28,270 bases of DNA from Amoebophrya sp. A120 (GCA_905178155.1 CAJINV010000032.1:18110-46379); one strand, 5' to 3'. Counted from the stretch's first letter, positions 2,301 to 26,300 are shown. Notes: a model not told the origin generated them from the letters alone. A program made the numbers and translations.

Positions 2301-2838
2301 TCGTTATCAACCCCGCATGAGCAGCACGCACTTACCTCCTTAGCCAGCAGGTGAAGAAATGTGTCGTACTAGCGGATGCCGACACCGACATCGGCGACGC
2401 GAGAAAGTTAATGCGCGGATAAGTAGTAAGTTGCTGGCACCCAGCAGTCGCTAGTTGTAGTTCGTCCCCGGGGCATTTAATGACCCGAAATTCTGGCACG
2501 AGTGGTGCGGCCACCCGTTGTGCCCTTTCTGGAAACAGCTATTCTCGTTTATTTCAGCTTCATCAGCCGATCTGCACGAGCAGGGCCTTGTCCACTTACA
2601 CCAGAAACAGTAACAAGGGTAAGCCGTGCTGTAATCATGGAGTTCTCTGTCGTCGCCGCACATGGTGCTCGGGAAGCGGAAGTGATGGGGCCGCGACTGT
2701 TTTCTGATCCGCACCTACACCTGGTTCGGGCACTACGAGGTATTCCGCTTTTCAGCCAAAGGTGATCCCGAGTTTCAGCCGTATCACGTGGATCCGATTT
2801 TCAGCCGGAGGTGAATCCGACATATCTTAGCACCGCTT

Positions 2839-3180
2839 CTACTGCTTTTCACAATAGCCCGACAGATGCTTCCGCTGTTCTACGACGGAACTTGTCTCGA
2901 GCGACATCTTCAGAGCTGCAGTCGGCTCCACCTCCATCCTCCGCATCACAGGCTTATATCTGGGTGGCTTTATTGCGACCAAGGATTCACAAAGAGACTG
3001 CAGATCGCCTCCTTCGCAATCCACAGCCACAGAAGGAAGGAGATTCTCTTCGCACGAAGGCGTAAACGGCGCGGCAGGATCGGACAAGTAGAAGCCGTTC
3101 GTCAGCTGGTATTCGTGGACAATGGTCGACTTTGTGTGAGTTTGCGCAGCAGCACGCGCCCAAAAAACATGAAAGCGCAT
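2839..3180 (-). CDS. Hypothetical protein or gene fragment (113 aa ORF)
   Basis: Supported only by protein-level similarity to the diverged copy at ~1989-2300; no recognisable domain. Confidence 0.3.
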   Translation of the reverse strand: MRFHVFWARAAAQTHTKSTIVHEYQLTNGFYLSDPAAPFTPSCEENLLPSVAVDCEGGDLQSLCESLVAIKPPRYKPVMRRMEVEPTAALKMSLETSSVVEQRKHLSGYCEKQ

Positions 3181-4996: not shown

Positions 4997-5276
4997 TATC
5001 CTGAGCAAAAACGTCCTCACCCCAGAGTCAAGATGGGAAATCCGCTAGACAAATCAGCCACCTCTGGTTGTTTCGCATGACAAGTTTATCCTCGTAGTGT
5101 AATCCTGTTCAGCTAGTTCCGAAGCATCACAGATCTAGCATATCATGCTGATTCTAGCATTACAAATTCCAAAACAGGATTAAGAAAATGGTTCTCATGG
5201 GGCTCCGCATGAGAAACTTTTTTGGCATACAGATTTGCATGACAACCCTGGTGTGGGGACATTTTTACTCAGGATA
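4997..5276. mobile_element. IR introner/MITE family B, outside CDS
   Basis: TATCCTGAGCAAAAACG...CATTTTTACTCAGGATA; 5-bp DR CCCTT/CCCTT. Confidence 0.92.
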
Positions 5277-5516: not shown

Positions 5517-5775
5517 TATCAACTGTAAAAATGTCTGGGCCTGCAAATTTGTGATGCATGGCAGTGAAAAGAAAGCATACTGTAGTGCGCCGCCAGGCAT
5601 GACAAATTTATCCTTGGCTCCCTGTTGCGTATTCCGCATGACAAACACCGTTTTTGCATGACAGATAAGAGGAGCTCTTGCTGGTCACGCAATACAGAGC
5701 TCCGCGTCATGCCCGACTAGCATGACAAATGCAAACTCCGCATCCTTCCAGACCCAGACACTTTTGCATTTGATA
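5517..5775. mobile_element. IR introner/MITE family A, outside CDS
   Basis: TATCAACTGTAAAAATGTCTGGG...CCCAGACACTTTTGCATTTGATA; DR ACAGG/ACAGG. Confidence 0.92.
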
Positions 5776-5836: not shown

Positions 5837-8800
5837 TCACTTCTTCTTAGCGGCAGGCTTTTTCTTCGCGGCAGCCTTCGCGGCCGCCTTTTCTTCCTTT
5901 TCTGCCTCCTTCTGGGCTTTCTTTTTCGCGGCCGCTGCAGCCTTTTCAACTTTCTCTTGCTCCTTCTGCGTATCAAATGCAAAAGTGTCTGGGTCTGGAA
6001 ACTTGTGTTGCTGATACTTGCATTGCAAACTTGCTGCGTGTACGGCATAACAGCATGAGAAATTTCCCTCGGCATTCCTTGGGGATTTCATTCGTATTTA
6101 GCATTACAAACTACCATATCCAGCACGACAAAAAAACTGGCCGATGGCATTCATGCATTACAGATCTTGTTGTCCTTGAAGTCCTGCATCACAAACCCAG
6201 ACCCGGACACATTTGCAATTCATACTGTGCCTTCTTGTCCTCGTCAGCCTTCGCCTTAGCGGCTTTAGCGGCGGCTTTTATCAAAGTGAAAAATCCCCCC
6301 TCCCCATACTAAAAAGGGATACTCCTGAAGATTTGTGATGGTGATTTGTAACCACAAATCGTCTCTGCATTGCACGAAGGCAACCCCAGCGACTCCGCTG
6401 CGTTGCGCAGGCAATTTGTGACGGTGTATCGCCTACAGAGGATGTGCCTGCCTTGCTAGGTGCCTACACCAAAACGCCCCTCCTCAGGCTGCGCACCTGC
6501 CTGCAGTCCTCTACTGCAACACAAAGCCGATTTGTGTACACAAATCCCGCATCACAGATTTCCATTTTGATCTGAGGCGGGGGGATTTTTCATTTTGATA
6601 GCTTTCGCGGCGGCTTTCTTCACCTTCTGGTCGTCTTTGTATGCCTGTTATCCTGAGTAAAAACGTACCCACACCAGAGTCAGGATGGGGAATCTGCTAG
6701 ACAAATCAGCCAGCTTTGGTTGTTTGGCATGACAAGTTTGTCCGCGTAGTGTAGTGCTGTTTGAGCTAGTGGAGCAGCATTACAGATCTAGCATCTCGTG
6801 CTGATTGGAGCATGACAAATTTCAAAACCGCATTAGAAAATGCTTCTCATGGGGCTCCGCATGAGAAACATTTTAAGCATGCAGAGTTGCATGACAACTA
6901 TGGCGTGGGTACGTTTTTACTCAGGATACCTGTACGGACAGACCAGCCGCAGTGGCAGCCTCCTTGATCTTATCAACTGCAAAAATATCTGGGTCTGGAT
7001 GAATGCCAGACTTGTCATGCAGGTTGTCCATGACCCATGAGGTTGAGGTCTCGGTCTGGTATGTAGGACATAGCATGACAGATTCTGTGAGAGTTCTATC
7101 ATGCCTATCCTGCATGAGAAACTCCCTCTCGATTAGGTCAAAAGTGGACAGCTTTTGGTAATCATGCAACACAGATTTTTACATGTTTCAGATTTAGCAT
7201 GACAAGTTGTTTTGTTCCAGACCCAGACATTTTTGCATTTGATAGATCTCCGCATTTTTCGCCGCCGCCTTTTCCCGCCTCTCCAGCACCTCTGGCTCGA
7301 AATTTTCCAGGGCCCGCTTCCACTTCGTCCCATTCCATCCTGGATCGAACAGTTCGTAGCCGTCGGCCAGCATCCGGGCAATCCAGTCCTTCTCGGCCTT
7401 ACCAATGTACAGGTGATAGCGTGTTCGACCACCAAAGGTTGCTGTGCTGTACTTTCTGAGTTCACAGAACCCTATGCAGTGCAAATATCTTCGATCTGGG
7501 TTTGGATGGATGCAGATGTCTGTCATTCGCATCCTCCCACAAGGCCTAGGCCATGCAAAGGGCCTTTAGCAATACAAACTTTCCAATAGGCGTGGGCCTG
7601 TAGGCCTAAATTCCGGTCGGTTGGTCGGTCGGTTGGTTGGTTTTGGACAGACGACAACTGACCGAACCCGCTCCATTGTGTTTTGTGTTTTTCTGAGATT
7701 CATCTATTATTACTGTTGAAGCTGCCTACCTACCCACCTACCTGGCGTCTTTTCGATTCATTGTAGTACCGTGATCGCACCGATCCACCTACCTACCTAT
7801 CCCTTGCCACCCAGAGACAGCTGCCTACTGGTCACGCCTACCGACCTACCCACCCACATGGTGGGTAGGTGGGGCGAGGGAGCGCGCGCTGCCTATTGGC
7901 CACGCCTACCGACCTACCGACCCACCAGCCTGGTGGGTGGGTGGGGCGAGGCAGGGCGCGCTGCCTATTGGCCACACCTACCGACCTACCCACCCACCTC
8001 GCTGGTGGGTGGGTGGGGCGAGGGAGCGTGCGCTGCGTATTGGCCACGCCTACCGACCTACCCACCCACCAGCCTGGTGGATGGGTGCGGCGAGCAAACG
8101 CTGTCTATTGGCCACGCCCACCGACCTACCCACCCACCTCGCTGGTGGGTGGGTGGGGCGAGCGTGCGCTGCCCCTTGGCTACGCCTACCGACCTACCCA
8201 CCCACGGGCCTGGTGGGCGGGTGGGGCGAGCGTGCGCTGCCTATTGACCACGCCTACCGACCTACCCGCCCACCTCGCAGGTGGGTGGGTGGGGTGAGCG
8301 TGTGTTGCCTCTTGGCCACGCCTACCGACCTACCCACCCACCTGCCTGGTGGGTGGGTGGAGCGAGCGCGCGCTGCCTATTGGCCGGGCTGCCGAGCGAC
8401 CTACCCACCCACCAGGCAGGTGGGGGTGTGGGGCGAGCGTGCGCTGCCTACTGGCCACGCCTACCGACCTACCCACCCACCTGCCTGGTGGGGGGGGGCG
8501 GGGCGAGCGTGCGTTGCCTATTGGCTACGCCTACCGACCCACCCACCCAGCTGCCAAGCGGGGGGGGGCGAGGGAGCGTGTGTTGGCTATTGGCCACGCC
8601 TACCGACCTACCAGCCCACCTGCCAAGCGGGGGGGGAGGGGGTGGGGCGAGCGTGCGTCGCCTATGGCCCAATCTATTAGCAGGGGGCTTGCAAGCAAGG
8701 GACTCGCGAAGCCAAGGGGTTGCGCAAAAAGCCCCCGCTCGGCTTGACCAAGCGGGGGCTGATCCAAATTTTGCGCGAATTTGTCTCTATTTCCCAAGTG

Positions 8801-11800: not shown

Positions 11801-14800
11801 CACCATCAGAAGTTGTTTGGAAAGGCTTGTACTTGCTGATTCATTCGGAAAATAACGCATGACAAGCTTCAATCCAGTATGTACGACAAAAAAACTGGCC
11901 CATCGCATTCATGCATCACAGATCTTCTTGTCCTTCAATTCTCGCATCACAAGTTATCCAGACCCAGATGAGATATTTGCAATGCATATCTGGGTGCATT
12001 GGGTCCTCGTAGTCGTCAACCCGAGCGATGTATCCTGTGCAAAAGTGTCGTACTTGAATTGCAATCATGCATTACAAATTTTTTTTGAAGGGTAAATCAG
12101 CATTACAAATTTTATTTCTCATGCTGAGGTAATTTGTATATGCATTTCTACGAGTACGATAATTTTGCAGTTCATACATTGCCGCGTGGGCGTCCATCAG
12201 CGCATTTCTCACGTTATCACACAGAAAAATAAGCAGGCAGGTCATAAAAGTTGTCATGCAAAAATAATTCAGACAAAAAAATCTGTATTGCAACTCCTAA
12301 ACAGCATGCGGCGGCGCCGCCCATGAAAGATTTTTCTGTGCATTCATTTTGGCATGACAAATTATATGCCCTGCTAGCTTTTTTCTCTGGGATACACGCG
12401 GACCGTAATCGCGGGCGAACAGCGTCACGTAGACCTTCTCGATGCTGGAAATCACGGGGTTCTCGGTGTGGTTGTCACACGCATCCCGCATGAGCTTCGC
12501 ATCGTTCGCGCAAGCGTCGCAGAGGAGAAGCTCGCTCGCCGCCAGGAAGTGTATCCAAGAAAAAAAGTGTGAAGTGTAAGTCTTTTGGGAAAACTGCATC
12601 ACAAGTTTGTCTGCCATGACAGGAAAAATTTGCTATGCGCAGATAGGAAGGGAAAAGAACTAGGAAGGGAGCCGATCATGCACGTCGAGCATGACAAGTG
12701 TAACTGTCTTGCATTTTCTGCATCACAGATTTACACTTACACAGTTTTTTTCTTGCATAAAGTGGAAAGTCGGTTTATTGCCCACGGCACTCGGTGCCTC
12801 GTCTTCTGGAGTCCTTTCGACACCAGCACCCGACCAAAACTCTGCCACTTCGTTTCCTACAGTGTCGAGTAGCGATTTGGTACAGTCCTCTTTCTCGCAG
12901 AGGCAGCACCGGTATGCATTGCAAAGATGTCTGGGTCCTCTGGAAGAATGCTGGTTTACGAAGATGCTAAAGTAAAAATCTCGGAGTGACACCAAAATCT
13001 GCATTGCAGGGGAAACACAACAAGCTGCTCACGAAGAAAGGTTTCTAGATATGGTAAAACGACCCGAGGTCAAGCCCGTGATGCTGTGCCCTGCAAACCA
13101 GACCTTCGGAGTCGTCCATTCAGCGCAAGACAAATTATTATACCTGCATCGTTCCAGATCTCCCAGACACTCTTGCAATTGATAGCCGTCCGATGTGCCA
13201 CTCCCGTTCGCTATGCTTGACCCACATCTTGCGGAACTTTTTCGACGTGTGACGTTTTTTCGGCACGACGTCTGGATTGTTTTTTTATCAAATGCAAAAA
13301 TGTCTGGGTCTGGAAGGTTGCAACTTGTGATGCTGTCTTTGGAAGGTAAAAAAAAACTGTATTGCATGACCAGCAAGAGGAGTTCCGTTTGTGCTACGCG
13401 AAGTGGGCGTTTCTCATGCGGAATACGCATCAGAAGGCCCTTTAAAAATCTGTGATTCTAGGTCATGCATTGATACGATACAATGACCGGCTATGCAAAA
13501 TATGCATGACAAACCTGGCAGTCTTCCAGGTCCAGACATTTTTGCACTTGATACCTTGCCTCCGCCATTGTCCTATGCATTGCAAAAGTATCGCATTCGT
13601 ATGTATGCATTACAAATTTCCTCAGCATGAGAAATGAAATTTGTAATCCGGATTTGCCTTAAGAAAAGGATTTGTAATGCAAGACTTGCATTTATACGAG
13701 TACGATGCTTTTGCACAGGATATGTCCGAGTCGTGCTCGTTCACGTACTCCTCCTATGGATTGCAAATATGTCTGGGTCTGGAAGAACCAAACTTGTGAT
13801 GCTGAATTTGGATGCTAAAAAAATCTGTATTGCATGAGCAGCAAGAGGAGTCAAATTTGGCTACGCGGAGAGGGCATTTGTCATGGAGGATGCGCATCGA
13901 TAGACGCTCAAAAAATCTGTGATGCTATGGCATGCATCGGAGACATCATGGATCATGGAAAATGTGCATGACAAACTTCTACTTTCCAGACCCAGACATT
14001 TTTGCATTCGATACCTCCTCATGTTGTCCCTCTGGCGGATTGTTCTTCTTTTTCCCCTATCAAATGCAAAAATGTCTGGGTCTGGAAACTCGTGGTGCAA
14101 GGAAGGGAATACTGGTGAAAACACTGTAATGCGCTGCCAAGCAAGACAAGTTTTTTCCATGGTTCTGAGTTGCGTACTCCGCATGAGAAACTGCGTTCGA
14201 GCATGACAGGCAAGACGAGCTCTTCGCGGCCATGCAACACAGAGTTCAGAGTCATGCCAGACAAGCATGACAAATCTCGCAATTTTCAAAACCCAGACAT
14301 TTTTGCATTTGATATCGCCCGCGGCTTCGGCTTGGCTCTCGCCTTTGCCGCGGCTTTTGCAGCAACCGCAATCGGTGGAGGAGGTGCTGGCACAGGTGGG
14401 AGTAGAAGGCTGTTCTTCTTGTTCGCTTTTTTGTCCGCACGGTTCTCGTTGTGGTCCGAGTGCATTATTCTACAGAAAAGTAGAAGTACACCGATAGATT
14501 GACCAGAAAAAAATTGTTGAATCTGTCATGGCGCTGTTTATGTTTTCTCGTCACAATAAAACGAGGCTCTATGAAGAAGAAGATCATGCTGATCATCCGC
14601 ATGAAAGTCGATAATTCTCTTTCAGCACGCTACACAAAAAGCTAAATCAGCAAGACAAATTTCTTTTTTTTCTGGCACCAGCATGGGTGTACAACATTTG
14701 TGTTTGCATGGGATAATATTATCCGTCTTCATCTCGTCTCCCTCGACTGAGTGTTTTTTGTTTTTCCTCGCTTGTTTTTTGTTCTCCTTCTTTTCCTTTT

Positions 14801-17800
14801 TTGACTTTTTGTCCTTTTTTTCTTTCTTCTTTTTGCCGTTGTCTTCACTTTCGTCGGCGTGGTTGTTCTCCTGGAGGAAACTCATGTTTTTGTCAAGAAC
14901 AACATCTGCGGGTGGTGAATCTTTACGCACAGCATTCTGGTCGAGGTCAAAGTCCTGGTTGTTCAGTAGCTGTCCGCCACTCGGTTCGTCCTCCTGAAAA
15001 AACACCACTGGCGTGTCCGAGAAGGGTTTATCGAACGCGTTGGGGTTCTTCTTCCTCATCTTCTCTAAGTGCTTGTCCCGCCTAGAATGGATGTACGCGT
15101 TCCAATATCCACTGCAAAAGTAATATCGCACTCGTACCAATTGTGCTTTTATGCATTACAAATCTTTTTCTTAAGTGAAATTCGCAATACAAATTGAATT
15201 TGACGTAATGCTAAGGCATCAATTTGTTGTAATGCATTTATACGAGTAGGAGTACGATACTTTTGCAATCTTCATATCAAAGTATCCGGGTCGAGCTTGA
15301 GCTCCTGGCTGTCGTTGTCCTCTTCATTCTTTTCGATTTCGGATAATTCGTATCAAATGTAAAAATGTCTGGGTCTGGAAGATTCTGACACTTGTCATGC
15401 ACGTTTTGCATGAGCCACGATGTCTGTGATGCATACCCTAGCAATACAGATTTTCTGAGGGCTTCTTGATGCCTATTCCGCATGACAAATGCCTTCTCAG
15501 CGTAGCAAAAATTGCATTCCCTTTGCTACTCATGCAATACAGATTTTTTTGGAATCCAAATGCAGCATCACAAGTTGCATTCTTCCAGACCCAAACATTT
15601 TTGATTTGATAATTCGTCGTCACCGAAGTCGAGATCCAGCTCCAGGTAGTTGTCATCGACAGGTGGTTCTTTCGCTTTTTTCGCGTTGACAAACTTGGCC
15701 TGGTTTTATGAAATGCAAAAGCATCGTACTAGTAGTAATCGCAGTACAAATTTGCTCAGCATGACAAATGGAATTTCTCATGCTGATTGACCTTGAAAAA
15801 AAGATTTGTCATGCATAAATGCGATTACTACGAGTACGATACTTTATTTGCACAGGATAGGTTTTCCCCGGCCCGATTCGAAGATTTCGTCTCCCGACTG
15901 CGGCCACGGTCGGGCTCATCCAGCTCCGCCTTCCGAAGTCTCGCTTCCTCCTCCTGTATGCAGTGCAAAGAAAAGTATCGTACTCGTATAAATGCATTAC
16001 AAATTTCCTCAGCATGAGAAATAAAATTTGTAATGCTGATCTACGTGAAGAAAGAGATTTGTAATGCATGCTTGCAATACGAATACGATACTTTTGCACA
16101 GGATATCCTGTTCTTCCTTCTGTTTTTCGCAAAATTTCTCCACCAGCTGGCCGAGCTTTTTCCTCATTTTTTTCGGCGGGAGATCCTGCATTTCCACGGT
16201 CACCAGCTCGGGATCACGCTGCTCGTACTGCACGAATAGGTGTGGCTTGGACTCGGGCGCAGTGTCGAGATTCTTTTCCCAGGAGACAACCCAGTACTGA
16301 GCAGGTGCTACATCGCCGTCCTCGTTTATGGAAGTGCACAAGAACTCCCTCTTCCCCGCATTTGTGTAAGCATGAACAGCAAGACAAACACCAGCACACG
16401 TGGATGCTGGTGGGCATGACAAGTTCATGCTCTCAGTGTAGTAGTACTGTTCTTTGGGCTATTTCAAAATTTGTGATGCGTAATTAGTGACACAAGGGAA
16501 CAACTGGAGTTGCGATTCATTTGCATGAGAAATGAGAACGAGGGGGAGTAGTTGTGCACTGTCATATCGCCGTCTTCGACGGGTTCGACCTCGACCTTCG
16601 CGTTTGATTTTTTCGCCGTGGGCTTCAAGTCATTGTCGACGAAATATCGTAAGGAAAAATCCCCCCTCCCCATATCGAAAAGGAACGCCGCAGAGAATTT
16701 GTGATGCTGATTTGTGACCACAAATCGCGTTTGTCTTGCAAGAAAGCAACGACATGGGCTCCGCCGCATTATGCAGGCGGTTTGTAATGCTGTTACAACT
16801 CCTACAGCATAAACGTTCCTCATGCCAAGTGCCTAGGCCAAAACCTTTCTGCATGGGCATGATATGGGCCTGCAGTGCTATCCAGCAAGACAGCTCTGAT
16901 TTGTGTACACAAATCCAGCATCAGAAGTTTCGTTTTGATATGGGGAGGGGGCATTTTTCCTTTTGATACGAAACACCACCGTCGCTCATCTTCCCCAGGA
17001 AAAGGCGTCTGCGTCCCGGCCCCCGGCTGGAACGCGAAGTCAAAGTCTATCCTGTGTAAAAACCTTCCCAGCACGACCCCAGAGTTGTCATGCAAATGCG
17101 CAATGACAGGAATCGATTTGGTGTGCGCATTTCCATGAGAGGCATGATTTCCAGTCGTGTTTTGGCATTTGTAATGGGAAACTTGTCATGCAGAACTTCC
17201 AAAACTTGGGGATTTGTGTTGCAGACTTCCCATCATGACTATGGTGTGGGGACGTTTTTACATAGGGTAAAGTCCTCGACGTCAACGTCGTCCTCGTCAG
17301 ACGACGACGAAGAATATCAAATGTAAAAATGTCTGGGTCTGGAAACTTGTGATGCTGGGGGGCGTCTCATGATGAGGCCACAAGTGCTGGCTCAGCATGA
17401 CAAGTTTCTGAGCTTCTAGGTGTTGCCTATTCTGCATGACAAACTGCATCTCTGCATCACAGAAAAATGGAGCTCTTGGGTAACGTGCATGACAGATTTA
17501 AGAGTCATACCAGACAAGCATGACAAACATGCATTCTTCCAGACCCAGACATTTTTACATTTCATAAAGAACAAACGCTCCACGAATTGCGATATGCACT
17601 GCAAATATGTCTGGGTCACTGGATGAGTGGAAGATTTGTCATGCGCATTTTGCATGACTCCTGATCGATCTGTGATGTATGCGCTGGCAACATGACAGGT
17701 TTCATTGTGAGGCCTCCTAATGCAGCCTAAGCCTACACAACATGAAAAGTGCCCCCTCCACGTAAGTAGCAGCTAGTGGACTCCTCTTGCTGCTCATGCA

Positions 17801-20800
17801 ATACAGATTTTTTTTAGAATCGCAAGACAGCATCAAAAGTTGCATTCTTCCAGACCCAGATCGATATTTGCACTCGATATGCGATAGCGGCGGGAGACTT
17901 TGACCCAAGGATTTTCTTCCTGGTGCTTCCTATGAATTGCAAAAGTATCGTACTAGTACGAATTACATATACAAATTTCCTCAGCATGAGAAATGGAATA
18001 TGTAATGCTGATTTCCCTCAAGGAAAAGATTTGTAATGCATAACTGCAATTACAACTACGAGTGCGATACAACTTTTGCACTGGATACTTCCATAGCGCC
18101 TCGTCACCGTAAAGGTCCTTTACGGTCCATTCTTCGTCGTTTCTGGGTTTTATCTCGCCCGTGCTATCCCACGAAACAACTGTTTCACTGTGATGGTTTT
18201 GCAAGATCTGCATCACAAGTTTGCTACACATGACACAGAAAATTTGTCATGCGCGTTTTCCAAGGGAAAACACGCTGAAAGATCCGTTGTGTTGCAGGTG
18301 TAGCAAGACAAACGCATTGGTGTTTCGCTCTCTGCATCACAGATTCACAATGAAGCAGTTTTTTCTTGCGATACGTTCTCTCGTCGATGTAGTGTTGGAA
18401 CACAGGCGTTGCGGTATTCTGAGTAAAAACGTCCCCACCCTCGAGTTGTCATGCGAAATTTGCACGCCAAAAAAGTTAGTCATGCGGAGCTGCATGCTGA
18501 GAGCCATTTTCTAGTTGTGTTTTGGAATTTGTCATGCTAGAAGCAGCATGATGCGCTAGATCTGTGATGCTGCTGAATTACCTAAACAGGACTACTCTAC
18601 CGGGACAAACTTGTCATGCGAAACAGCCATAGCTGGTTGATTTGTCTAGCAGATGTCCCATCTTGACTCTGGTATGCGGACACTTTTACTCAGGATATGC
18701 GCTACTATCAACCGGGACCTGCTGCTGCTGCTGCGGCGCGTCTGGGTTGTTGTAGCAGTACAGGTTCATGTTAAAGTCTGCCGCAGAAACGGCTCCGAAC
18801 TCATAATATGGTATCAAATGCAAAAATGTCTGGGTCTGGAAGAATGCAAGTTTGTCATGCAGCTTTTCCATGACCATCCACGAGGTCTGGAATGCAGGAC
18901 CTAGCATGACAGATTCATCTGTGTGATCTCTTTCGTGCCAATTGTGCATGAGAAACTCCCTGCCGACTTGGTCAAAAGTCGACAGCTTTTGGTAATGATG
19001 CAACACAGATTTTTGCATGATTCAGATTTAGCATGACAAGCTGCATTCAATTCTTCCAGACCCAGATATTTTTGCAGTGGATATTTGGCTGCTGGATACC
19101 AAAGTTACCGTCCGCCTGCGAAAGCGCTCCGTAGGTATACTGGTCATTCTGCATCAAACTTGACCCAGCTGCGCTCTCCATACCAGGAAAAACCGCTGGC
19201 GTTTCCGAGTAGTTCGCAAAGATCTCAGTGTTGTCGCGATTGTAGAAGTCGCTCGCATATCCTGTGCAAAAGTATCGCACTCGTAACGCAATCATGCATT
19301 TACAAATCTTTTCCTGAAAGCAAGTCACCTTTACACATATTATTTCTCATGCTGAGGAAATTTGTAAAATGCATTTATACGATTACGAGTACGATACTTT
19401 TGCACAGGATATCGCAATCGTCAGGCCACCTTTCAGCAGGTGAAATTGTCCCCCAGAAGAACCAAATGCGGTTCCAGACTGGAAATCAAGCGCAGAGCTG
19501 GTGCCTGGTTCTGCCACGCCACCCTCTTGGCCTGGGAAGGGGAGAACGCTTTCTCCTCCTACAGGTTCCGGCTGTTGATTCGATGAAGTTGTACTGGGAA
19601 CATTAAAATGTTGATAGTTAAATGAGTATCAAATGTAAAAATGTCTGGGTCTGGAAGAATGGAAGGCTTGTCATGCTTGTCTGGCATGACCCATGATGCT
19701 TGTAATGCATGACCCAGCATCACAGATTTTTGGAAAGCTTCCTGATGCCATTTCCGCATGACAAATGCCCTCCTCGCGTAGCACACATGTGGCTCCTCTT
19801 GCTGGTCATGCAGTACACATTTTTTTAGAGTCCAAAGTTAGCATCACAAGTTCCAACTTTCCAGACTCAGACATTTTTACATTTGATAAGGAGTTGAAAA
19901 CGTTCCGTTCGCCATGTTGATCCTCGTCCTGGGGTATGGATTGCAAATATGTCTGGGTCTGGAAACTTGTGATGCTGGCTGGCGTATCATGAGGAGGCCA
20001 CAAGTACTGGCTTAGCATGACAAGTTTCTGAGCTTCTAGGTGTTCCCTATATTGCATGACAAACTGCGTCTCTGCATGACAGAAAAGTGGCGCTCTTGGG
20101 TAACGTGCATGACAGATTTGAGAGTCATGCCAGACAAGCATGACAAACATGCACTCTTCCAGACCCAGACATTTTTACATTTGATATGGGGCAACAGAAA
20201 TTCGCGCGCAGCAGTCGCCGACGTTGAACTACTGCTTGCAGCCGCAAATGCAGGAGCAGGAGCCGACGATGAGCTACTACTTGCAGCCGCAAAGGCCCTT
20301 TTCTGCCCGCCGGTACTAGAGGTCATGATCTCAGCAGCCGGTAGAAGTTTTTCTCGATCTGAGTGTAGTTGAGCCTCCTTGTTGTCTCGTGGTGCTTTGC
20401 TCATCTTCCCAGATGAAGCTCCAGCTTCAACAGCAGCAACCGCTGTCGTGGCTGTTGGACGACTAGAAGTCTATCACAAGAAAAAAGTGCTACAGTTACA
20501 CATCTGTTGTAAGTTCAGCAACACAAATTTTCTCTGTGTGGCAGAGAAAATTTGCAATGCAGAGATCCTATGGGAAAACACGTACGAAATGAAGTTTGGA
20601 TGCATTTATTGCATGACAAAGGGTGTCTGTCTTGCGGCTCCTGCAACACAATGTGTAACTGTAGCATTTTTTTCTTGCGATAAAGTCGCCGCGGTTTTTC
20701 GGGGTCGACCACGCCCGCGTTTTGCGGCTGGAGGAGCACTTATTTCTTCATCTTGCGGTCGTGCCTCAATGCGATCAGGATTGTTCTTTTCCGACAGCGG

Positions 20801-23800
20801 CACACCTGTCACAGGGTCGAGCTGTGGTGGAGCAGCAGCGTCCAACGGCTTCGAGGCCGGTCCTTGTTGCGAAGGTTTTATTTGTCCCTCCGCTGCAGCT
20901 GCCGAGCTGCTTTTCGCATCCTGGGACGTCGATGAGATGATTTTCATGTGGGACGATCTACTCACGACCTCCTTGTCCGCGTGGTCAACATCCGCTAACA
21001 CACTAACGCCGGTGCCAACGCCGTTGTCCGGGTTTTCTTCCGTGAGAGGCGGCTCAGCAGCTAAGGTAGTTGGATGTTCCTTTGCAGCTTCTTTCCCGGC
21101 GGCGAATGCTGGTCCTTGTCCATCAGAAGTTTGTTCTGGCCACTTGGCGTTCTTGCCGGAAACTTGCTGTCGTGCACTGCTCAGTTGTCCATGATCTCGA
21201 AGGTCGTCGTCTTCGGACTTGATGTCGAGCTGTTTGTGCATGTTCGCATCTTGTTCCGGGCGCTTGACATTGATGTCCTTGTTGCAACTCCCAGTGAAGA
21301 TTTCACTGATATTATTCTGAACGCCTTTCTTGGCCATCGTCTTGAGCTGGGGAGCAGCGGCATCCAACGGCTTCGCGGCCGGTCCTTGTATCAAATGCAA
21401 AAATGTCTGGGTCTGGAAGGATGCAACTTGTAATGCTAGCTTTGGACTCTACACAAAATCTGTCTTGCATGACCAGCAAGAGGAGTTCAGTTTGTGCTCC
21501 GCGGGGAGGGCATTTGTCATGCGGAATAGGCATCAGGAGGGTCGCTAAAAATCTGTGATGCTAGATCATGCATTACAGACATCCTGAGTCATGCAAAATA
21601 TGCATGACAAACTCCTGCATGCGTCCAGACCCAGATATTTTTGCATTTGATACCTTGTAGTTGCGCAGGTTTTATTTGTACCTCCACTGCAGCTGCCGAG
21701 CTGCTTTTCGCATCCTGGGAAGATTTTTGGATGATCTTCATGTCCGACGATCTACTCACGACCTTGTCCGCCTGGTCAACATCCGCTAACACATCAACGC
21801 GAGTGCCAACGCCGTTGTCCGTTTTTTCTTCCGTAAGAGGCGGCTCAGCAGCTAAGGTAGTTGGATGTTCATTTCCAGCTTCTTTCCCGGCGGCGGATGC
21901 TGGTGCTTGTGCGTCAGAAGTTTGCTGTTGCCACTTGGCGTTCTTGCCGGAAACCTGCTGTCGTGCTGCACTCAGTTGTCCCTGATCTCCAAGGTCGTCG
22001 CCTTCGGACTTGACGAGCTGTTTGTGCATGGTCGCATCTTCCTATGACAGTGCACAACTCCCCCTCCCCCTCATTTGTGTAGCATGAACAGCAATACTGT
22101 AAGCATCAGCAAGAGTGCCGGCTTTGCATGACAAATTCACACTCGAGTGTAGTGCTATTTCGGCTGCCAGAACTTGCCAAGCTAACAGTGCCAAGAGGCA
22201 AAGGGGGGACTGGGTATTTTGCATGACAAATCAGGGGGAGGGGGGGTTGTGCAGTGTCATACTTTCCCGGCGGCGGATGCTGGTCCTTGTGCGTCAGAAG
22301 TATGTTCTTGCCACTTGGCGTTGCCAGAAGCCTGCTGTCGTGCACTGCTCAGCTGTCCATGATCTCCAAGGTCCTCGTCTTCGGACTTGATGTCGAGCTG
22401 TTTATGCATGTTCGCATCTTGTTCCGGGCACTTCACGTTGATGTTGTCCTTTTTGCAATCATTCCCAGTGAAGCTTTTTTCCCCGGAAAAAGAACCACTC
22501 TGACCGCCTTTCTTGACCGTCGTCTTGGCTTTATTCGGTTTAGCCTTGTCGTGCTTGTTCTGCTGTAGCTTAGGAAGATCGGGCTGTTGTTTTTCTTGTG
22601 CATCGTCAACAGTAGTGTTTATTTCCTTGCAGTTCTTCAGAAGACTGCTAGAGCTACCTGGAACCACGTGCGACGCCCCGGCCGCGGGTTTGGCCTGCGG
22701 GTTTTTGTTTCTCTGGTGCTCACCGTCGGCAGATTTTTCCTTCTGCCCCTTGCTGAGTTTCGCGTTGCAGCTCATTGGCGAGATGTCGCTCACACTATCC
22801 TGCAGCAGGGTCATATGGGAGTGTCAGGATTGAAATCGTCAAAGTTGAAATAGTTTGTCATGCAGGAAATGGAGCGCAAAGACTGCCTCTATTGCAGAGG
22901 ACGCAAGGGAGGCACATTGTAGTGCTGGTAAGGGTCGACAGAGGGAAGCCCCATTGCCCTGAACAGCATGACAAACTGGCTTCCGGTACGGACAAAATTT
23001 GTCATGCGCCGACTAGAAACTGCGGGTCCAATTGGTATCCATTTTATGCATGACAAATCATTTCAACTTTGTCGATTTCAAACCTGACGCTTCCATAGGT
23101 CACTGGTTGAGCTTCAGCAGTCGCCACTTGTGGCCCAACAGTCCTGCCTCCTTTGCTGGATGCGCCCTTTGCTTTTTGCTTTTTCATCTTTGTAGTTGTG
23201 GGCTGCTCTTGTCCAGCAATTTTTCCAGCATCACGTTTGTTGTTGCTCCCCCCGACAATATGAGCTGGTTTTATCGTGGGAAAAAAATGTCTCAGTGCCA
23301 ACTTGTAATGCGCAAGAACCTCCTTGACAAGACAATTGCTTGCCATGCTCAACGTGCAAAAAAGCCGGCTTTCGCTGCTTGTGTTTTCCCTTTTATGTGG
23401 TCTGACGCATCACAGATTTTCAACATCTGTGTCATTCTGAGCAAATAATTTGTATTGCTGAGTCTGCAATCAAGGATCCAAAACTTTGGGACTGAGACAG
23501 ATTTTTCTTGCGATAAGTGCGGCCACGCAACTACTGCTGCTGTTTCTTTTCGCAGGAGGGAGACCAAGCTCACTGTCATCCCGACCACGCTTCGTGGCGC
23601 GCCCATCGGGTACGGGTACTTCGTGTCTGGACGTCGTGTCTTTGGAGCTCGCTGCTACTCCTATCAGGGGCGCAGCTTCATCTGATAACTCTCGATCACC
23701 GACAGGCCATTTCGATTGTTCTTTCTTGCCGGCGCCGTCGTGTGCCTTTTGCGGCGCACCTCCACGCACATTTGCTTTCGTTGCAGCAGGAGTTGCCGGC

Positions 23801-26300
23801 CGCTTGGAAGTTGATTTTCGATTGTTTTTCTTGGTTTCCTGTGCTTTCGCAACCTCCTTTCCACCGAGCGATCGGCCCCTCGTCTTCGACGAAACCGTAT
23901 CACCTGCAAAAATGTTTGGGTTCTTTGGAAGAGCCAAAGTTGTGATCATGCTGCATTTGGATGCTAAAAAAATCTGTATTGCATGAGGAGCAAGAGGAGG
24001 TAAATTTCGCTACGCGGAGAGGGGGCATTTGTCATGCAGAATGCGCATCGATGGGCGCTCAAAAAATCTGTGATGCTACTTATGGCATACATCACAGAAA
24101 TCATGGATCACGGAAAATGTGCATGACAAACTCCTCCTCTTCCAGACCCAGATATATTTGCAGTTGATATGCCTCCGCCTCGAATTTCTTCAAAGACGCG
24201 ACTGATCCTGGGGCGACGGGTATCCTGAGGAAAAACGTCCCCACCCCAGAGTTGTCATGCAGATTTGCAATGGCAAGGACATTTGTGATGCACATACCTA
24301 TGGTAAACATTTCCAATCGTGTTTTGGAATTTGTGATGCTATGAACAGGATAAGGAGACGGATTTGTTATGCGGCTTCCCTTGCTAAGCTGCACTACAGT
24401 ACAGTGTGCAACTTCGCATGCGTGACTCCCAAAGCTTCTAGGTTTGTGTTGCAAAGTCCCCATCTTGCCTCTGGTGTGGGGACGTTTTTACTCAGGATAA
24501 CGGGCGGCTTCCGATCTCCAACCTTAGAGGATGAGGACGAGGTCGAAGAGAGTACTGGCACCAGCGATGCCTGCTGATTCATCTTCCCGGAGTCGTTATT
24601 TCCTGCGCGTTATGCATTGCAAATATGTCTGGGTCTGGAAGGTGAGAACTTGTGATGCTAACTTTGGACTCTAAGAAAATCTGTATTGCAGGACCAGCAA
24701 GACGAGCCCAGTTTGTGCTACGCGGGGAGGGCATTTGTCGTGCGGGATATGCATTAGGAAGGCCTTTAAAAATATGTGATGCTAGATCATGCATTACAGA
24801 CATCCTGAGTCATGCGAAATATGCATGACAAACCTGGCAACCTTCCAGACCCAGACATTTTTGCATTTGATACGCGTGCTGTATTTAAAGACGAGGCTGC
24901 CGCTGCAGTGGAGCTGGACTCCTGCTTCTTCTTGATGCCCGCGCCTACATCTTCCGCATTGTTCGTCTTCCCACTGCGTGCACGTGAGCGAGAACCTGCT
25001 TTCCCCTGCTGTGCACCTCTTGGTGCTACCGGAGGCATATGAACTGCAAAAATTGTATCGCACTCGTCGTGTAAATGCATTTACAAATTTCCTCAGCATG
25101 AGCAATGAAATTTGTAATGCGGATTTAGTTTAAGAAAAATATTTGTAATGCATGCATGACTGCAATTACTCCGAGTACGAAACTTTTGCACAGGATAAGG
25201 TACCAGAGCCGGAGGTTTGGCGGCCAGAACAGCCGACGAACTCGAGCTTGGTTGTCCCGGAGCGTTTGGTATGCATTGCAAATATGTCTGGGGCTGCGGC
25301 TGGAAACTTGTAATGCTAAAAGTGAATGGTAGACGCACTGCAATACGCAGCTACGCAAGACAAATTTTTTGGCTGCCATGTCTTACGTATTCCGCATGGC
25401 AAACTGCGTTTTTGCATGACAGGCAGCAGGGCCTTTCCGTGCCTAGGCAACACAGATTCATCTCGAGTCATGCCACACAAACATGACAAAGTTGCATTCT
25501 TCCAGACCCAGACACTTTCACAGTTGATATTGGGGCGATGCGGCCTGGGAGATTTGCATCCCGCGGCCAGGATTTTCTCCGCCAGGTTCTTCTCCCCATG
25601 TGTGCCGCCTTTTGGTGCTACCGGAGGTATATGAACTGCAAAAATTGCATCGCACTCGTGTAAATGCATTACACATTTCCTCAGCATGAGAAATGAAATT
25701 TGTAATGCGGATTTAGCTTAAGAAAAAAATTTGTAATGCATGATTGCAATTACTACGAGTGCGAGTACGAAACTTTTGCACAGGATAAGGTACCACAGCC
25801 GGAGGTTTGGCGGCCGGAACAGCCACCGCTAGCTGTACGTGCTTCGCATCCGGTTTCTGCACACCGGATTTGACAGATTTCGCATCGCCCCGAGAACAAG
25901 CTCTCGCTTTCGAGGCGGCGAGCCGCCTGGGTGCTACCGGAGGTACCAGAGCCGGAGGTTTGGCGGCCGGAACAGCAGACGAGCTGGAGCTTGATTGTCC
26001 CGAAGCGTTGGCGGGTATGCATTGCAAATATGTCTGGGTCTGGAAGGTTGCAACTTGTCATGCTGTCTCTGGATCGTGCAAAAATCTGTGTTGCATGAAT
26101 GCCAGAAGCTGTCCACTTTTGACCAAGTTGAGAGCAGTTTCTCATGCAGGATCGGCATGATAGAGATCTCACAGAATCTGTCACGCTAGGCCCTGCATTC
26201 TGCATTCCAGACAACATGGATCATGGAAAATCTGCATGACAAATCTCGGAACCTTCCAGACCCAGACACTTTTGCATTTGATACTGGGACGATGCGCCAT
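5837..26300 (-). CDS. Large (~2284 aa) putative DNA/chromatin-binding protein, 49 exons: low-complexity and repeat-rich N-terminal half, AT-hook, acidic middle, Cys/His motifs, Lys/Ala-rich C-terminal tail
   Basis: Inter-element segments (each includes both DR copies; drop 5 nt per junction): 26284-26300, 25788-26015, 25530-25629, 25198-25269, 24873-25037, 24500-24610, 24170-24220, 23516-23897, 23098-23271, 22262-22813, 21653-22042, 20683-21388, 20187-20471, 19889-19934, 19412-19626, 19084-19257, 18698-18811, 18374-18414, 18088-18164, 17880-17930, 17567-17592, 17270-17314, 16969-17047, 16567-16644, 16106-16326, 15860-15956, 15612-15706, 15277-15350, 14716-15105, 14315-14465, 14014-14057, 13723-13754, 13554-13573, 13185-13285, 12760-12912, 12395-12551, 12177-12214, 11989-12030, 11689-11712, 11500-11538, 10981-11202, 10675-10737, 10277-10392, 9740-10070, 7245-7472, 6929-6970, 6601-6648, 6225-6278, 5837-5970. 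Sum 7095 - 48x5 = 6855 nt = 2285 codons; all 48 junctions checked by hand stay in one stop-free frame (MAHRP...AAKKKPAAKKK*). The start codon is uncertain because the frame stays open upstream. Confidence 0.9.
5971..6224. mobile_element. IR introner family A (intron)
   Basis: TATCAAATGCAAAAGTGTCTGGGTCTGG...TTGCAATTCATA; DR CTGCG/CTGTG; frame restored. Confidence 0.9.
6279..6600. mobile_element. IR introner family C (intron)
   Basis: TATCAAAGTGAAAAATCCCCC...GGGGATTTTTCATTTTGATA; DR GCTTT/GCTTT. Confidence 0.92.
6649..6928. mobile_element. IR introner family B (intron)
   Basis: TATCCTGAGTAAAAACGTACCCAC...GTGGGTACGTTTTTACTCAGGATA; DR CCTGT/CCTGT. Confidence 0.93.
6971..7244. mobile_element. 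IR introner family A (intron)
   Basis: Family A TIRs; DR GATCT/GATCT. Confidence 0.93.
7826..8668. repeat. ~65-70 bp tandem repeat inside the nested element
   Basis: Unit approx. TATTGGCCACGCCTACCGACCTACCCACCCACC-N-GGTGGGTGGGTGGGGCGAGCGTGCGCTGCC, roughly a dozen copies. Confidence 0.95.
8925..9210. repeat. Array of GCARCACAGAT(TTG) motifs inside the nested element
   Basis: About a dozen copies, e.g. 8927, 9003, 9036, 9060, 9136, 9158, 9179, separated by GCGC-rich spacers. Confidence 0.85.
10071..10276. mobile_element. IR introner family D (intron)
   Basis: TATGGAAAGAAAAAAGTTTGTCAC...GTGACGAACTTTTTTTGTTTGATA; DR ATCTT/ATCTT. Confidence 0.9.
10393..10674. mobile_element. IR introner family B (intron)
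   Basis: Family B TIRs; DR CAACT/CAACT. Confidence 0.93.
10738..10980. mobile_element. IR introner family E (intron)
   Basis: TATGACAGTGCACAACACCCCCTCCCCC...GGGGGAGTTGTGCAGTCTCATA; DR TGCTG/TGCAT. Confidence 0.9.
11203..11499. mobile_element. IR introner family A (intron)
   Basis: TATCCACTGCAAATAT...ATATTTGCAGTGCATA; DR TAGAC/TACAC. Confidence 0.88.
11539..11688. mobile_element. IR introner family F (intron)
   Basis: TATCCTGTGCAAAAGTATCG...CGATGCTTTTGCATTTCATA; DR AAACT/AAGCT. Confidence 0.9.
11713..11988. mobile_element. IR introner family A (intron)
   Basis: Family A TIRs; DR TCTGG/TCTGG. Confidence 0.92.
12031..12176. mobile_element. IR introner family F (intron)
   Basis: Family F TIRs; DR CGATG/CATTG; frame restored. 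Confidence 0.88.
12215..12394. mobile_element. IR introner family G (intron)
   Basis: TATCACACAGAAAAATAAGC...GCTTTTTTCTCTGGGATA; DR CACGT/CACGC. Confidence 0.87.
12552..12759. mobile_element. IR introner family H (intron)
   Basis: TATCCAAGAAAAAAAGTGTGAAGTGTAA...TTACACTTACACAGTTTTTTTCTTGCATA; DR AAGTG/AAGTG. Confidence 0.92.
12913..13184. mobile_element. IR introner family A, diverged (intron)
   Basis: TATGCATTGCAAAGATGTCTGGG...CCCAGACACTCTTGCAATTGATA; DR ACCGG/GCCGT. Confidence 0.87.
13286..13553. mobile_element. IR introner family A (intron)
   Basis: Family A TIRs; DR decayed TTTTT/CCTTG; frame restored. Confidence 0.87.
13574..13722. mobile_element. IR introner family F (intron)
   Basis: Family F, opposite orientation to 11539-11688; DR TGTCC/TGTCC. 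Confidence 0.92.
13755..14013. mobile_element. IR introner family A (intron)
   Basis: Family A TIRs; DR CCTCC/CCTCC. Confidence 0.92.
14058..14314. mobile_element. IR introner family A (intron)
   Basis: Family A TIRs; DR TCCCC/TCGCC. Confidence 0.91.
14466..14715. mobile_element. Highly degenerate IR introner (intron)
   Basis: TATTCTACAGAAAAGTAGAAGTACACC...GGTGTACAACATTTGTGTTTGCATGGGATA; DR lost (TGCAT/ATATT); removal +5 nt joins MKTD to SDHNEN in frame. Confidence 0.7.
15106..15276. mobile_element. IR introner family F (intron)
   Basis: Family F TIRs; DR TCCAA/TCAAA. Confidence 0.88.
15351..15611. mobile_element. IR introner family A (intron)
   Basis: Family A TIRs; DR ATTCG/ATTCG. Confidence 0.92.
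15707..15859. mobile_element. IR introner family F (intron)
   Basis: Family F TIRs; DR GGTTT/GGTTT. Confidence 0.92.
15957..16105. mobile_element. IR introner family F (intron)
   Basis: Family F TIRs; DR TCCTG/TCCTG. Confidence 0.92.
16327..16566. mobile_element. IR introner family E (intron)
   Basis: TATGGAAGTGCACAAG...GTTGTGCACTGTCATA; DR TCGTT/TCGCC. Confidence 0.88.
16645..16968. mobile_element. IR introner family C (intron)
   Basis: TATCGTAAGGAAAAATCCCCCTCCCCATATC...GATATGGGGAGGGGGCATTTTTCCTTTTGATA; DR CGAAA/CGAAA. Confidence 0.92.
17048..17269. mobile_element. IR introner family B (intron)
   Basis: TATCCTGTGTAAAAAC...GTTTTTACATAGGGTA; DR AAGTC/AAGTC. Confidence 0.9.
17315..17566. 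mobile_element. IR introner family A (intron)
   Basis: Family A TIRs; DR AAGAA/AAGAA; near-identical to 19935-20186. Confidence 0.93.
17593..17879. mobile_element. IR introner family A (intron)
   Basis: Family A TIRs; DR TGCGA/TGCGA. Confidence 0.92.
17931..18087. mobile_element. IR introner family F (intron)
   Basis: Family F TIRs; DR CTTCC/CTTCC. Confidence 0.92.
18165..18373. mobile_element. IR introner family H-like (intron)
   Basis: TATCCCACGAAACAACTGTTTCACTGTGA...TCACAATGAAGCAGTTTTTTCTTGCGATA; DR CGTGC/CGTTC. Confidence 0.88.
18415..18697. mobile_element. IR introner family B (intron), inverted relative to 6649-6928
   Basis: Interior is the reverse complement of the 4997 and 6649 copies; DR TGCGG/TGCGC. 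Confidence 0.92.
18812..19083. mobile_element. IR introner family A (intron)
   Basis: Family A TIRs; DR TATGG/TTTGG. Confidence 0.91.
19258..19411. mobile_element. IR introner family F (intron)
   Basis: TATCCTGTGCAAAAGTATCG...CGATACTTTTGCACAGGATA; DR TCGCA/TCGCA. Confidence 0.93.
19627..19888. mobile_element. IR introner family A (intron)
   Basis: Family A TIRs; DR ATGAG/AGGAG. Confidence 0.91.
19935..20186. mobile_element. IR introner family A (intron)
   Basis: Family A TIRs; DR TGGGG/TGGGG. Confidence 0.93.
20472..20682. mobile_element. IR introner family H-like (intron)
   Basis: TATCACAAGAAAAAAGTGCTACAGTTACACAT...ATGTGTAACTGTAGCATTTTTTTCTTGCGATA; DR AAGTC/AAGTC. Confidence 0.92.
21389..21652. 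mobile_element. IR introner family A (intron)
   Basis: Family A TIRs; DR CCTTG/CCTTG; empty paralogous site at 20862-20866. Confidence 0.94.
22043..22261. mobile_element. IR introner family E (intron)
   Basis: TATGACAGTGCACAACTCCCCCTCCCCC...GGGGGTTGTGCAGTGTCATA; DR CTTCC/CTTTC. Confidence 0.91.
22814..23097. mobile_element. IR introner family I with ~50-bp TIR (intron)
   Basis: TATGGGAGTGTCAGGATTGAAATCGTCAAAGTTGAAAT...ATTTCAACTTTGTCGATTTCAAACCTGACGCTTCCATA; DR GGTCA/GGTCA. Confidence 0.92.
23272..23515. mobile_element. IR introner family H-like, diverged (intron)
   Basis: TATCGTGGGAAAAAAATGTCTCAGT...ACTGAGACAGATTTTTCTTGCGATA; DR decayed GGTTT/AGTGC; frame restored. Confidence 0.85.
23898..24169. 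mobile_element. IR introner family A (intron)
   Basis: Family A TIRs; DR decayed AACCG/TGCCT; frame restored. Confidence 0.87.
24221..24499. mobile_element. IR introner family B (intron)
   Basis: Family B TIRs; DR ACGGG/ACGGG. Confidence 0.93.
24611..24872. mobile_element. IR introner family A (intron)
   Basis: Family A TIRs; DR CGCGT/CGCGT; very similar to 21389-21652. Confidence 0.93.
25038..25197. mobile_element. IR introner family F (intron)
   Basis: Family F TIRs; DR AGGCA/AGGTA. Confidence 0.92.
25270..25529. mobile_element. IR introner family A (intron)
   Basis: Family A TIRs; DR TTTGG/TTGGG. Confidence 0.9.
25630..25787. mobile_element. IR introner family F (intron)
   Basis: Family F TIRs; DR AGGTA/AGGTA; empty paralogous site at 25941-25945. 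Confidence 0.93.
26016..26283. mobile_element. IR introner family A (intron)
   Basis: Family A TIRs; DR GCGGG/CTGGG. Confidence 0.9.

What the first reader, a model, noticed from the sequence alone, without database searches (positions are those of the whole stretch)
5837..26300. Hidden ~2284-aa gene split by 48 TAT...ATA inverted-repeat elements, all removed by one rule (element + 5 nt)
Seen: 48 elements from ~9 families interrupt the minus strand. Deleting each one plus one copy of its 5-nt flanking repeat keeps a single stop-free frame at every junction (6855 nt, divisible by 3). Removed lengths are not consistently multiples of 3, so retention would break the frame. Every intron in the gene is of this type. 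Known: IR/DR-bounded non-canonical introners were reported in Amoebophrya genomes with the removal mechanism unresolved; from memory one strain's IRs begin TAT (unverified). Inference: an efficient, precise excision system (non-canonical RNA splicing, or DNA excision) lets MITE-like elements saturate a gene that stays intact.
Basis: partly seen in the sequence, partly recalled or inferred. Interest (0 to 1): 0.92.

Follow-up and report, generated by a model that had tools for sequence, protein, structure and literature searches.

The report
Transposon introns cut by fixed ruler
A gene of the parasitic marine dinoflagellate Amoebophrya is interrupted by 48 small hairpin-ended repeats without normal splice signals; this kind of intron is already known from the organism, but the junctions that can be read fit a cut one base before and four bases after each repeat, likely made in the RNA by a distance-measuring mechanism that would make new insertions harmless.

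Summary
Observation confirmed. Removing each of 48 inverted-repeat elements plus 5 nt gives 6855 nt, 2284 aa and one terminal stop; 0 of 20,000 random offsets stay open. The elements are the published introners of Amoebophrya sp. A120 (PMC7789003): a deposited partial A120 protein matches 24 junctions, 23 of them by the rule. New detail: mismatched 5-nt repeats fix the register at 1 nt + TAT…ATA + 4 nt (0 mismatches; other registers 2-11), in agreement with 4 exon edges in an RNA-like run. The paper calls these sites variable. A DNA-like run keeps the elements, and 9 of 9 junctions lack the mirror product that symmetric DNA excision would give, so removal is likely at RNA level. The 5-nt duplication holds in 319 elements of another assembly. 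One 2.3-kb nested element is also removed. A shared internal motif recurs at 31-33 nt. Protein function unresolved; a single full-length transcript is not shown. This scan earlier noted similar hairpin introns in other protists, not this family.

The parts
5837..26300 (-). Host gene, 49 exons (15-701 nt, median 92), in-silico product 2284 aa; low-complexity N-terminal part, uncharacterised conserved C-terminal domain, K/A-rich tail
   Evidence: the ATG at 26300 is not shown to be the start (frame open further upstream)
5971..26283 (-). 48 introner elements e1-e48 (TAT..ATA, first-last base): 26283-26016, 25787-25630, 25529-25270, 25197-25038, 24872-24611, 24499-24221, 24169-23898, 23515-23272, 23097-22814, 22261-22043, 21652-21389, 20682-20472, 20186-19935, 19888-19627, 19411-19258, 19083-18812, 18697-18415, 18373-18165, 18087-17931, 17879-17593, 17566-17315, 17269-17048, 16968-16645, 16566-16327, 16105-15957, 15859-15707, 15611-15351, 15276-15106, 14715-14466, 14314-14058, 14013-13755, 13722-13574, 13553-13286, 13184-12913, 12759-12552, 12394-12215, 12176-12031, 11988-11713, 11688-11539, 11499-11203, 10980-10738, 10674-10393, 10276-10071, 9739-7473, 7244-6971, 6928-6649, 6600-6279, 6224-5971. 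Inferred intron = 1 nt before to 4 nt after each
   Evidence: 13,369 of 20,464 bases of the gene span
6621..17014 (-). Part of the gene covered by the deposited partial protein P0001 (CAD7974642.1, Amoebophrya sp. A120, 906 aa), junctions e23-e46
   Evidence: window limits read off the sequence by hand
14462..14716 (-). Intron of e29: repeat copies differ at 4 of 5 positions; the one junction that alone pins the 1+4 register
   Evidence: (run X5 piece ends at 14717)
15707..15859 (-). e26: the deposited model keeps 6 nt more than the rule (two extra residues); artefact or true exception, unresolved
17048..17269 (-). e22: 5' end reads TAC; frame still needs the 5-nt rule; no RNA or model evidence here
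7473..9739 (-). e44: 2267-nt introner (about 322 nt without its insert), absent from the deposited protein
   Evidence: homologues are collinear across it
7584..9519 (.). Nested non-coding TIR element inside e44: 80-bp inverted repeats 98.75% alike (9517-9438, 7666-7587), 8-10-bp target duplication, internal 68-bp tandem array 7820-8624
5517..5775 (-). e49, same type, downstream of the stop codon, perfect 5-nt repeat; removal not tested
4997..5276 (-). e50, same type, downstream of the stop codon, perfect 5-nt repeat; removal not tested
20690..20722 (-). AT-hook-like motif, below Pfam's cut-off (15.6 against 17.4 bits, E 0.014)
7312..12866 (-). Exons coding the conserved C-terminal domain (39% identical to an A120 paralogue P0003; 33% to an unnamed ENA protein P0004); limits approximate

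Best explanation
The 48 inserts are Amoebophrya A120 introners, short inverted-repeat elements flanked by a 5-nt duplication that are present in the DNA and are likely removed from the pre-mRNA by a machine that likely measures from the paired ends, cutting 1 nt before TAT and 4 nt after ATA whatever the letters there. Shown: structure, 5-nt duplication, frame, presence in DNA-like contigs, absence from RNA-like contigs and from the deposited protein, no GT-AG, both orientations, and the 1+4 register as the only one fitting all informative junctions. Inferred: the elements spread as non-autonomous cut-and-paste DNA transposons that make the 5-bp duplication; because 1+4 equals 5, an insertion at any site and in either orientation would be erased from the mRNA, which would let a gene fill up with elements; only the ends would be read, so a nested 2-kb insert is tolerated. 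The identity of the machine is not shown: I favour a dedicated structure-guided cut-and-join activity as proposed for euglenid introns (about 0.55) over an adapted spliceosome (about 0.35).
For: Register: the deposited protein P0001 has 0 mismatches to the 1+4 product and 11, 11, 8, 2 and 3 for the other five registers; 11 of its 24 junctions are informative; gene models were built from transcript alignments (PMC7789003 methods). RNA-like run X5: of 8 pieces shown, 7 follow exons or exon edges and one lies inside an exon; one record joins across e15; edges at 14717 (e29: exactly 4), 12908 (e34: 1-4), 15100 (e28: 3 or more), 19083 (e16: 4 or more). My arithmetic: about 1.4e-4 if each junction took a register at random. 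Homologues keep the residues that the register predicts at e40 (Cys, P0003) and e44 (Leu-Leu, P0004). DNA-like run X1: 4 contigs span e40, e34, e29 and e8 with both flanks, no differences, depth 23-39. Against symmetric DNA excision: 9 of 9 junctions that tell 1+4 from its mirror 4+1 show 1+4 (0.002 by my arithmetic). Opposite-orientation pairs obey it (e24/e41, e16/e33). GT-AG at 3 of 50; no base preference at the cuts in 110 oriented elements elsewhere. 49 of 49 short elements fold with z below -2. Duplication: 241 of 319 elements from 142 other loci, called without using the flanks, have a perfect 5-nt repeat; a paralogous empty site for e11 has one copy.
Against: Only e29 pins the register exactly; the others bound it from one side. 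The deposited model breaks the rule at e26. X5 is only guessed to be RNA, is contigs not reads, has depth 3-7, and may share its origin with the gene model. Element-free joints in DNA are not excluded: the joint table showed 15 rows and hid 2903. Of e1-e22 only e15 and e16 have RNA-like evidence and no protein record was found for that half. Predicted pairing of the terminal TAT/ATA is only 0.55-0.63 on average and near 0 in several elements, and positions 4-7 are complementary in only 26-36 of 50, so sequence reading of each end may matter more than the hairpin. No cognate transposase was found. PMC7789003 Fig. 3 legend says the sites are variable relative to the hairpin.
Confidence: 0.82

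Rival explanations
1. Same RNA-level 1+4 removal, but the chemistry is done by the resident spliceosome core (U2, U5, U6), guided by an adaptor in place of U1.
For: A120 keeps U2, U4, U5, U6 and 83 of 89 spliceosomal proteins, U1 not detected (PMC7789003 section 10). The register puts T-A at intron positions +2 and +3, as in canonical donors (recalled). An adapted U2 spliceosome is reported for Fritillaria introns (review PMC11282704, passages).
Against: No base is required at intron +1, -2 or -1; elements work in both orientations, so a polar branch-point signal is not evident.
Confidence: 0.33
2. The elements are excised from DNA in some life stage, like ciliate internal eliminated sequences, and the element-free contigs come from that DNA or its transcripts.
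For: 1+4 is two-fold symmetric on double-stranded DNA (a 3-nt stagger); X5 is not on record as RNA; the internal motif is spaced about three helical turns; DNA joints could not be listed fully.
Against: X1 contigs keep elements at even depth; X5 depth falls from about 5-7 at the 3' end to near 0 at 23.1-24.2 kb, as for poly(A) RNA; replication of a symmetric excision product should give both 1+4 and 4+1 forms, yet 9 of 9 show 1+4; length periodicity of 10 nt was inconclusive.
Confidence: 0.07
3. The cut slides within the 5-nt repeat from intron to intron, as the 2021 paper suggests; 1+4 is only the commonest class.
For: PMC7789003 reports variable sites and inverted repeats 1-5 nt from them; e26 departs in the deposited model; 11 of 12 informative junctions give one-sided or loose bounds.
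Against: All 12 informative junctions include register 4 and none excludes it; perfect repeats make any aligner's position arbitrary, which explains an apparent spread, as noted for Euglena 'slidable' introns (PMC12501133).
Confidence: 0.12
4. The locus is two or more genes or partly a relic; no 2284-aa protein is made.
For: The public model is partial (residues 1315-2219); no record for the N-terminal half; X5 depth near 0 over the 5' exons.
Against: The frame is open through all 22 upstream junctions and each long exon is open only in the frame used; X5 pieces lie on exons at 19083-19569 and 20842-21337.
Confidence: 0.15

Closest known systems
Introner elements (IEs) of Amoebophrya sp. A120 (Farhat et al. 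2021, PMC7789003; read: abstract, sections 10, 11, 12, 16, 25, supplement figure legends; figures not seen)
   Same: Same organism by protein identity; TAT + 7 nt + AAA ends; 3-5-nt direct repeats over the boundaries (a 5-bp example in Fig. S19 legend); hairpins; non-GT-AG; genes with only such introns.
   Different: Not a different system. [quoted passage not shown]
Euglenid nonconventional introns (Euglena agilis/gracilis; PMC12501133, passages read)
   Same: Paired terminal triplets with fixed spacers to the cut sites, no GT-AG, probable MITE origin, unknown machinery.
   Different: CAG/CTG with 3+5-nt spacers and a purine preference after the intron, against TAT/ATA with 1+4 and no base preference; unrelated lineage. 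That 3+5 equals the 8-bp duplication of hAT transposons is my inference from recalled knowledge; 'hAT' does not occur in that paper's main text.
Spliceosomal introners of Micromonas and Aureococcus; MITE-derived introns of Fritillaria (via review PMC11282704 and PMC7789003, passages)
   Same: Short TIR elements whose target duplication is partly spliced out so that the mRNA is restored.
   Different: Those use canonical or specific dinucleotide ends; here any dinucleotides occur.
Ciliate internal eliminated sequences (recalled, no call)
   Same: Transposon-derived, precisely removed with one copy of the flanking repeat.
   Different: Those leave the somatic DNA; here DNA-like contigs keep the elements and the mirror junction is not seen.

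Membership tests
Amoebophrya A120 introner elements | Occur in A120 genes | tested here: met
   Exon 44 is 100% identical to CAD7974642.1, named A120 by NCBI
Amoebophrya A120 introner elements | Inverted repeat starting TAT, 7 freer bases, then AAA | tested here: met
   99 of 100 ends start TAT; 87 of 100 fit the whole pattern
Amoebophrya A120 introner elements | 3-5-nt direct repeat over the exon/intron boundaries | tested here: met
   5-nt identity 0.84 in 50 window elements, 0.91 in 319 others
Amoebophrya A120 introner elements | Non-GT-AG boundaries | tested here: met
   GT-AG at 3 of 50 under the 1+4 register, 0-1 of 50 under the others
Amoebophrya A120 introner elements | Repeated families and hairpin fold | tested here: met
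   7 multi-copy clusters; 49 of 49 with z below -2 against 12 shuffles each
Amoebophrya A120 introner elements | Absent from mature RNA | tested here: met
   24 of 48 absent from the deposited protein; X5 contigs follow exons; raw RNA reads did not cover the gene
MITE (non-autonomous TIR DNA transposon) | TIRs, short, non-coding, fixed-length target duplication | tested here: met
   146-324 nt in 49 of 50; 5-nt duplication; single copy at a paralogous empty site for e11
MITE (non-autonomous TIR DNA transposon) | Cognate autonomous element with transposase | tested here: inconclusive
   10 long end-pairs in 142 loci, 4 examined for ORFs; one 415-aa ORF without Pfam, PDB or NCBIfam match; no whole genome held
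Euglenid nonconventional introns | CAG/CTG motif with 3+5-nt spacers | tested here: not met
   TAT/ATA with 1+4
Euglenid nonconventional introns | Purine preferred at first base of next exon | tested here: not met
   29 of 50 in the window, 63 of 110 elsewhere, as exon composition predicts
Euglenid nonconventional introns | Released as full-length circles without lariat | not testable with these tools
   Feature from review PMC11282704
Spliceosomal (Micromonas/Aureococcus-type) introners | Canonical splice dinucleotides supplied by element or duplication | tested here: not met
Programmed DNA elimination (IES-like) | Element-free junctions in DNA | tested here: inconclusive
   X1 contigs keep 4 elements whole, but its joint table was saturated by other copies
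Tyrosine recombinase (host protein) | Conserved catalytic R, H-x-x-R, H/W, Y pattern or family match | tested here: not met
   Atlas leads under 0.9; no Pfam, PHROGs, NCBIfam or PDB match; candidate motifs not kept in P0003/P0004

The most novel reading that the evidence does not exclude
A120 has a second, non-spliceosomal splicing system that reads transposon ends as a ruler (TAT/ATA, 1+4 nt) whose total offset equals the transposon's 5-bp target duplication, so every insertion is born a perfect intron in any sequence and either orientation; it arose independently of the Euglena 3+5 system, pointing to a general rule that spacer sum equals duplication length, and the shared 31-nt-spaced motif marks the one unknown protein that mobilises or licenses all families.
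Probability: 0.35. Interest if true: 0.85.

Novelty: already known. Interest (0 to 1): 0.5.

Why it matters
How A120 removes tens of thousands of non-GT-AG introns is an open question (PMC7789003). A fixed 1+4 register turns it into a concrete code: it predicts every junction from DNA alone, would repair fragmentary gene models such as this one, says which bases to mutate in a reporter, and parallels the experimentally proven spacer code of Euglena. I did not find the fixed register, the nested tolerance or the internal motif in 6 library searches or in the passages read; figures and Roy et al. 2023 (not held) could hold them.

Tried and rejected
No whole genome is held, so no genome-wide test in A120. 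A depletion of C at repeat position 5 in the window (5-6 of 50) was not reproduced in 110 oriented elements (23) and is dropped. Stop-creation test of registers in other loci: 25 mismatched junctions, 1 stop each for registers 0 and 1, too weak. Ten-base periodicity of family lengths: p 0.015-0.94 by clustering, inconclusive. Alternative frames at e36/e37 and e39/e40 looked protein-like by eye; rejected. Nearby in-frame GT..AG pairs exist for 18 of 48 within 12 nt but do not fit the model. Protein function: Pfam on 9 exons (one in the wrong frame, corrected), Pfam/PHROGs/NCBIfam/PDB on P0001 negative; both folds low confidence (pLDDT 39 and 45), Foldseek nothing at E 0.001. No N-terminal protein record. 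Rfam: one sub-threshold hit in the tandem array, ignored. Element end absent from viral contigs. The gene, nested element and satellites are not in the 142 fetched loci. PMC13326754 does not mention Amoebophrya. PMC12005148 passages: strain Kv uses GT-AG introns.

Full report
Observation. On the minus strand, 48 inverted-repeat elements interrupt a reading frame from 26300 to 5837, and two more lie past the stop. A first pass left 10-11 stops until I reset two boundaries by hand: e22 starts TAC at 17269 and e29 runs 14715-14466. Then element plus 5 nt gives 6855 nt, 2284 aa and one terminal stop; 0 of 20,000 random per-junction offsets stay open; retention of any of 48 breaks the protein. Frame alone fixes only 2 modulo 3; the flanking repeat fixes 5 (identity 0.84 against 0.18-0.34 for other lengths). 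The repeat is perfect in 25 of 48.

Identity. Exon 44 is 100% identical to CAD7974642.1, a partial 906-aa protein named Amoebophrya sp. A120. Farhat et al. 2021 (PMC7789003; sections 10, 11, 12, 16, 25 and supplement legends read, figures not seen) describe A120 introners: repeats starting TAT, seven freer bases, then AAA; direct repeats of 3-5 nt; hairpins; 29,850 repeated introns; genes with only such introns; removal mechanism open. Here 87 of 100 ends fit that pattern, and 49 of 49 short elements fold far below shuffles. Gozashti et al. 2025 (PMC12130899, passages) note tens of introner introns in single A120 genes. The elements are therefore the published kind.

Where the cut falls. Where the two 5-nt copies differ, the product shows how much of each is kept. 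The deposited protein, from a transcript-guided pipeline, spans 24 junctions, e23-e46. Keeping 4 nt of the upstream copy and 1 of the downstream copy gives 0 mismatches; keeping 0, 1, 2, 3 or 5 gives 11, 11, 8, 2 and 3; 11 junctions are informative. One junction, e26, has two extra residues that no register explains. In run X5, guessed to be RNA, the pieces shown follow exons, one record joins across e15, and edges give: e29 exactly 4, e34 1-4, e28 at least 3, e16 at least 4. Homologues keep the predicted Cys at e40 and Leu-Leu at e44 and are collinear over e35-e44. So the intron is 1 nt + TAT…ATA + 4 nt. Only e29 pins this alone; by my arithmetic the 12 informative junctions would all admit it with probability about 1.4e-4 under random registers. 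GT-AG occurs at 3 of 50, and 110 oriented elements from other loci show no base preference at the cuts. Family members lie in both orientations (64 and 58 pairs), including informative pairs.

RNA or DNA. In DNA-like run X1 four contigs cross e40, e34, e29 and e8 with both flanks and no differences at depth 23-39; X5 depth falls towards the 5' end. The 1+4 geometry is symmetric on double-stranded DNA, so a DNA cut is thinkable; but the two strands would then differ, and replication should give 1+4 and 4+1 forms alike. Nine of 9 junctions that tell them apart show 1+4. Element-free DNA joints were not excluded, because 2903 joint rows were hidden. Raw RNA runs X9 and X10 did not cover the exons, so there is no read-level count.

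Generality. A family-A end pattern hit at least 144 stretches of metagenome contigs and none of viral contigs. In the 142 loci held, 319 distinct elements were called without using flanks (the caller found 42 of 50 window elements, no extras); 241 have a perfect 5-nt repeat, mean identity 0.91 against 0.25-0.32. Offsets of 2 modulo 3 put 175-179 elements inside long frames against 112-117 for others. A paralogous empty site for e11 holds one copy of the repeat, as a target duplication should.

Anatomy. TAT is complementary in 49-50 of 50, positions 11-13 in 48-49, positions 4-7 in only 26-36: two conserved boxes at fixed spacing. e44 holds a 1.94-kb element with 80-bp inverted repeats and is still absent from the deposited protein; L076 shows a second nested case with a perfect repeat. 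An internal motif, TGTNATGC in either orientation, occurs 142 times in 13.9 kb of elements and 0 times in 6855 nt of exons; a relaxed form is in 48 of 49 elements, and same-orientation pairs sit 31-33 nt apart 44 times against 3.8 expected (254 against 24.7 in other loci), in 16 of 46 clusters. Copies within a family are not independent. Three helical turns suggests a DNA-binding protein, likely the mobiliser; this is inference.

Mechanism. Shown: elements in DNA, absent from product, one register, no dinucleotide rule, both orientations. Inferred: transposition makes a 5-bp duplication; an RNA-level activity measures 1 and 4 nt from the ends, removing exactly 5, so any insertion is neutral. 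Euglena has a proven analogue, CAG/CTG with 3- and 5-nt spacers (PMC12501133, passages); membership fails, the logic matches. I favour a dedicated activity over an adapted spliceosome, about 0.55 to 0.35; nothing here tests it.

Host protein. No family, structure or fold was found. It has a weak AT-hook, a Cys-rich stretch and a K/A-rich tail, so a chromatin role is a guess. Among 1.84 billion representatives only an A120 paralogue and one unnamed cluster match. The 2284-aa length is in silico: no record covers e1-e22 beyond two X5 junctions.

Verdict. Real and already known as a kind; the fixed register, nested tolerance and spaced motif were not found in my searches, with figures and Roy et al. 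2023 unseen. Earlier scan notes describe hairpin introns in other protists but none of this family. Interest 0.5.

Noticed in passing
window 7584-9519: A 1.94-kb non-coding TIR element of another type (80-bp inverted repeats, 8-10-bp duplication, internal 68-bp tandem array) nested in introner e44; 10 weak matches to the introner motif lie in it.
   Followed up: partly
L076:476-2934: Introner with a perfect 5-nt repeat and an insert of about 2.2 kb carrying a 415-aa frame (P0002) without Pfam, PDB or NCBIfam match; flanking frame is restored by the 5-nt rule (read by eye).
   Followed up: partly
window 26436-28269 and 1-895: G+C-rich tandem arrays of 234 bp (7.8 copies) and 35 bp (25 copies) flank the locus; the 234-bp array ends 136 nt before the ATG; no Rfam match.
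   Followed up: partly
window 26300-25000: The 5' exons were duplicated together with their elements (e1/e3, e2/e4; e2 and e4 87% alike), while a later duplicated segment (exons 10-12) has elements in one copy only.
   Followed up: partly
all elements, end positions 4-8: A small set of end variants is shared across families and differs between the two ends of one element, while positions 1-3 and 11-13 stay fixed.
   Followed up: no
window and L001-L142: Modal element lengths 112, 150, 211, 252, 262, 282, 312, 322 hint at 10-nt steps; not significant in 5 of 6 tests.
   Followed up: yes
window 900-4990: No introner and no convincing long frame (longest 260 aa stop to stop); possibly untranslated or intergenic.
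   Followed up: no
window 15351 and 19000-19040, run X9: Raw RNA reads carry short element pieces joined to other sequence (69 and 145 reads), so related elements are retained in some transcript of that sample.
   Followed up: no
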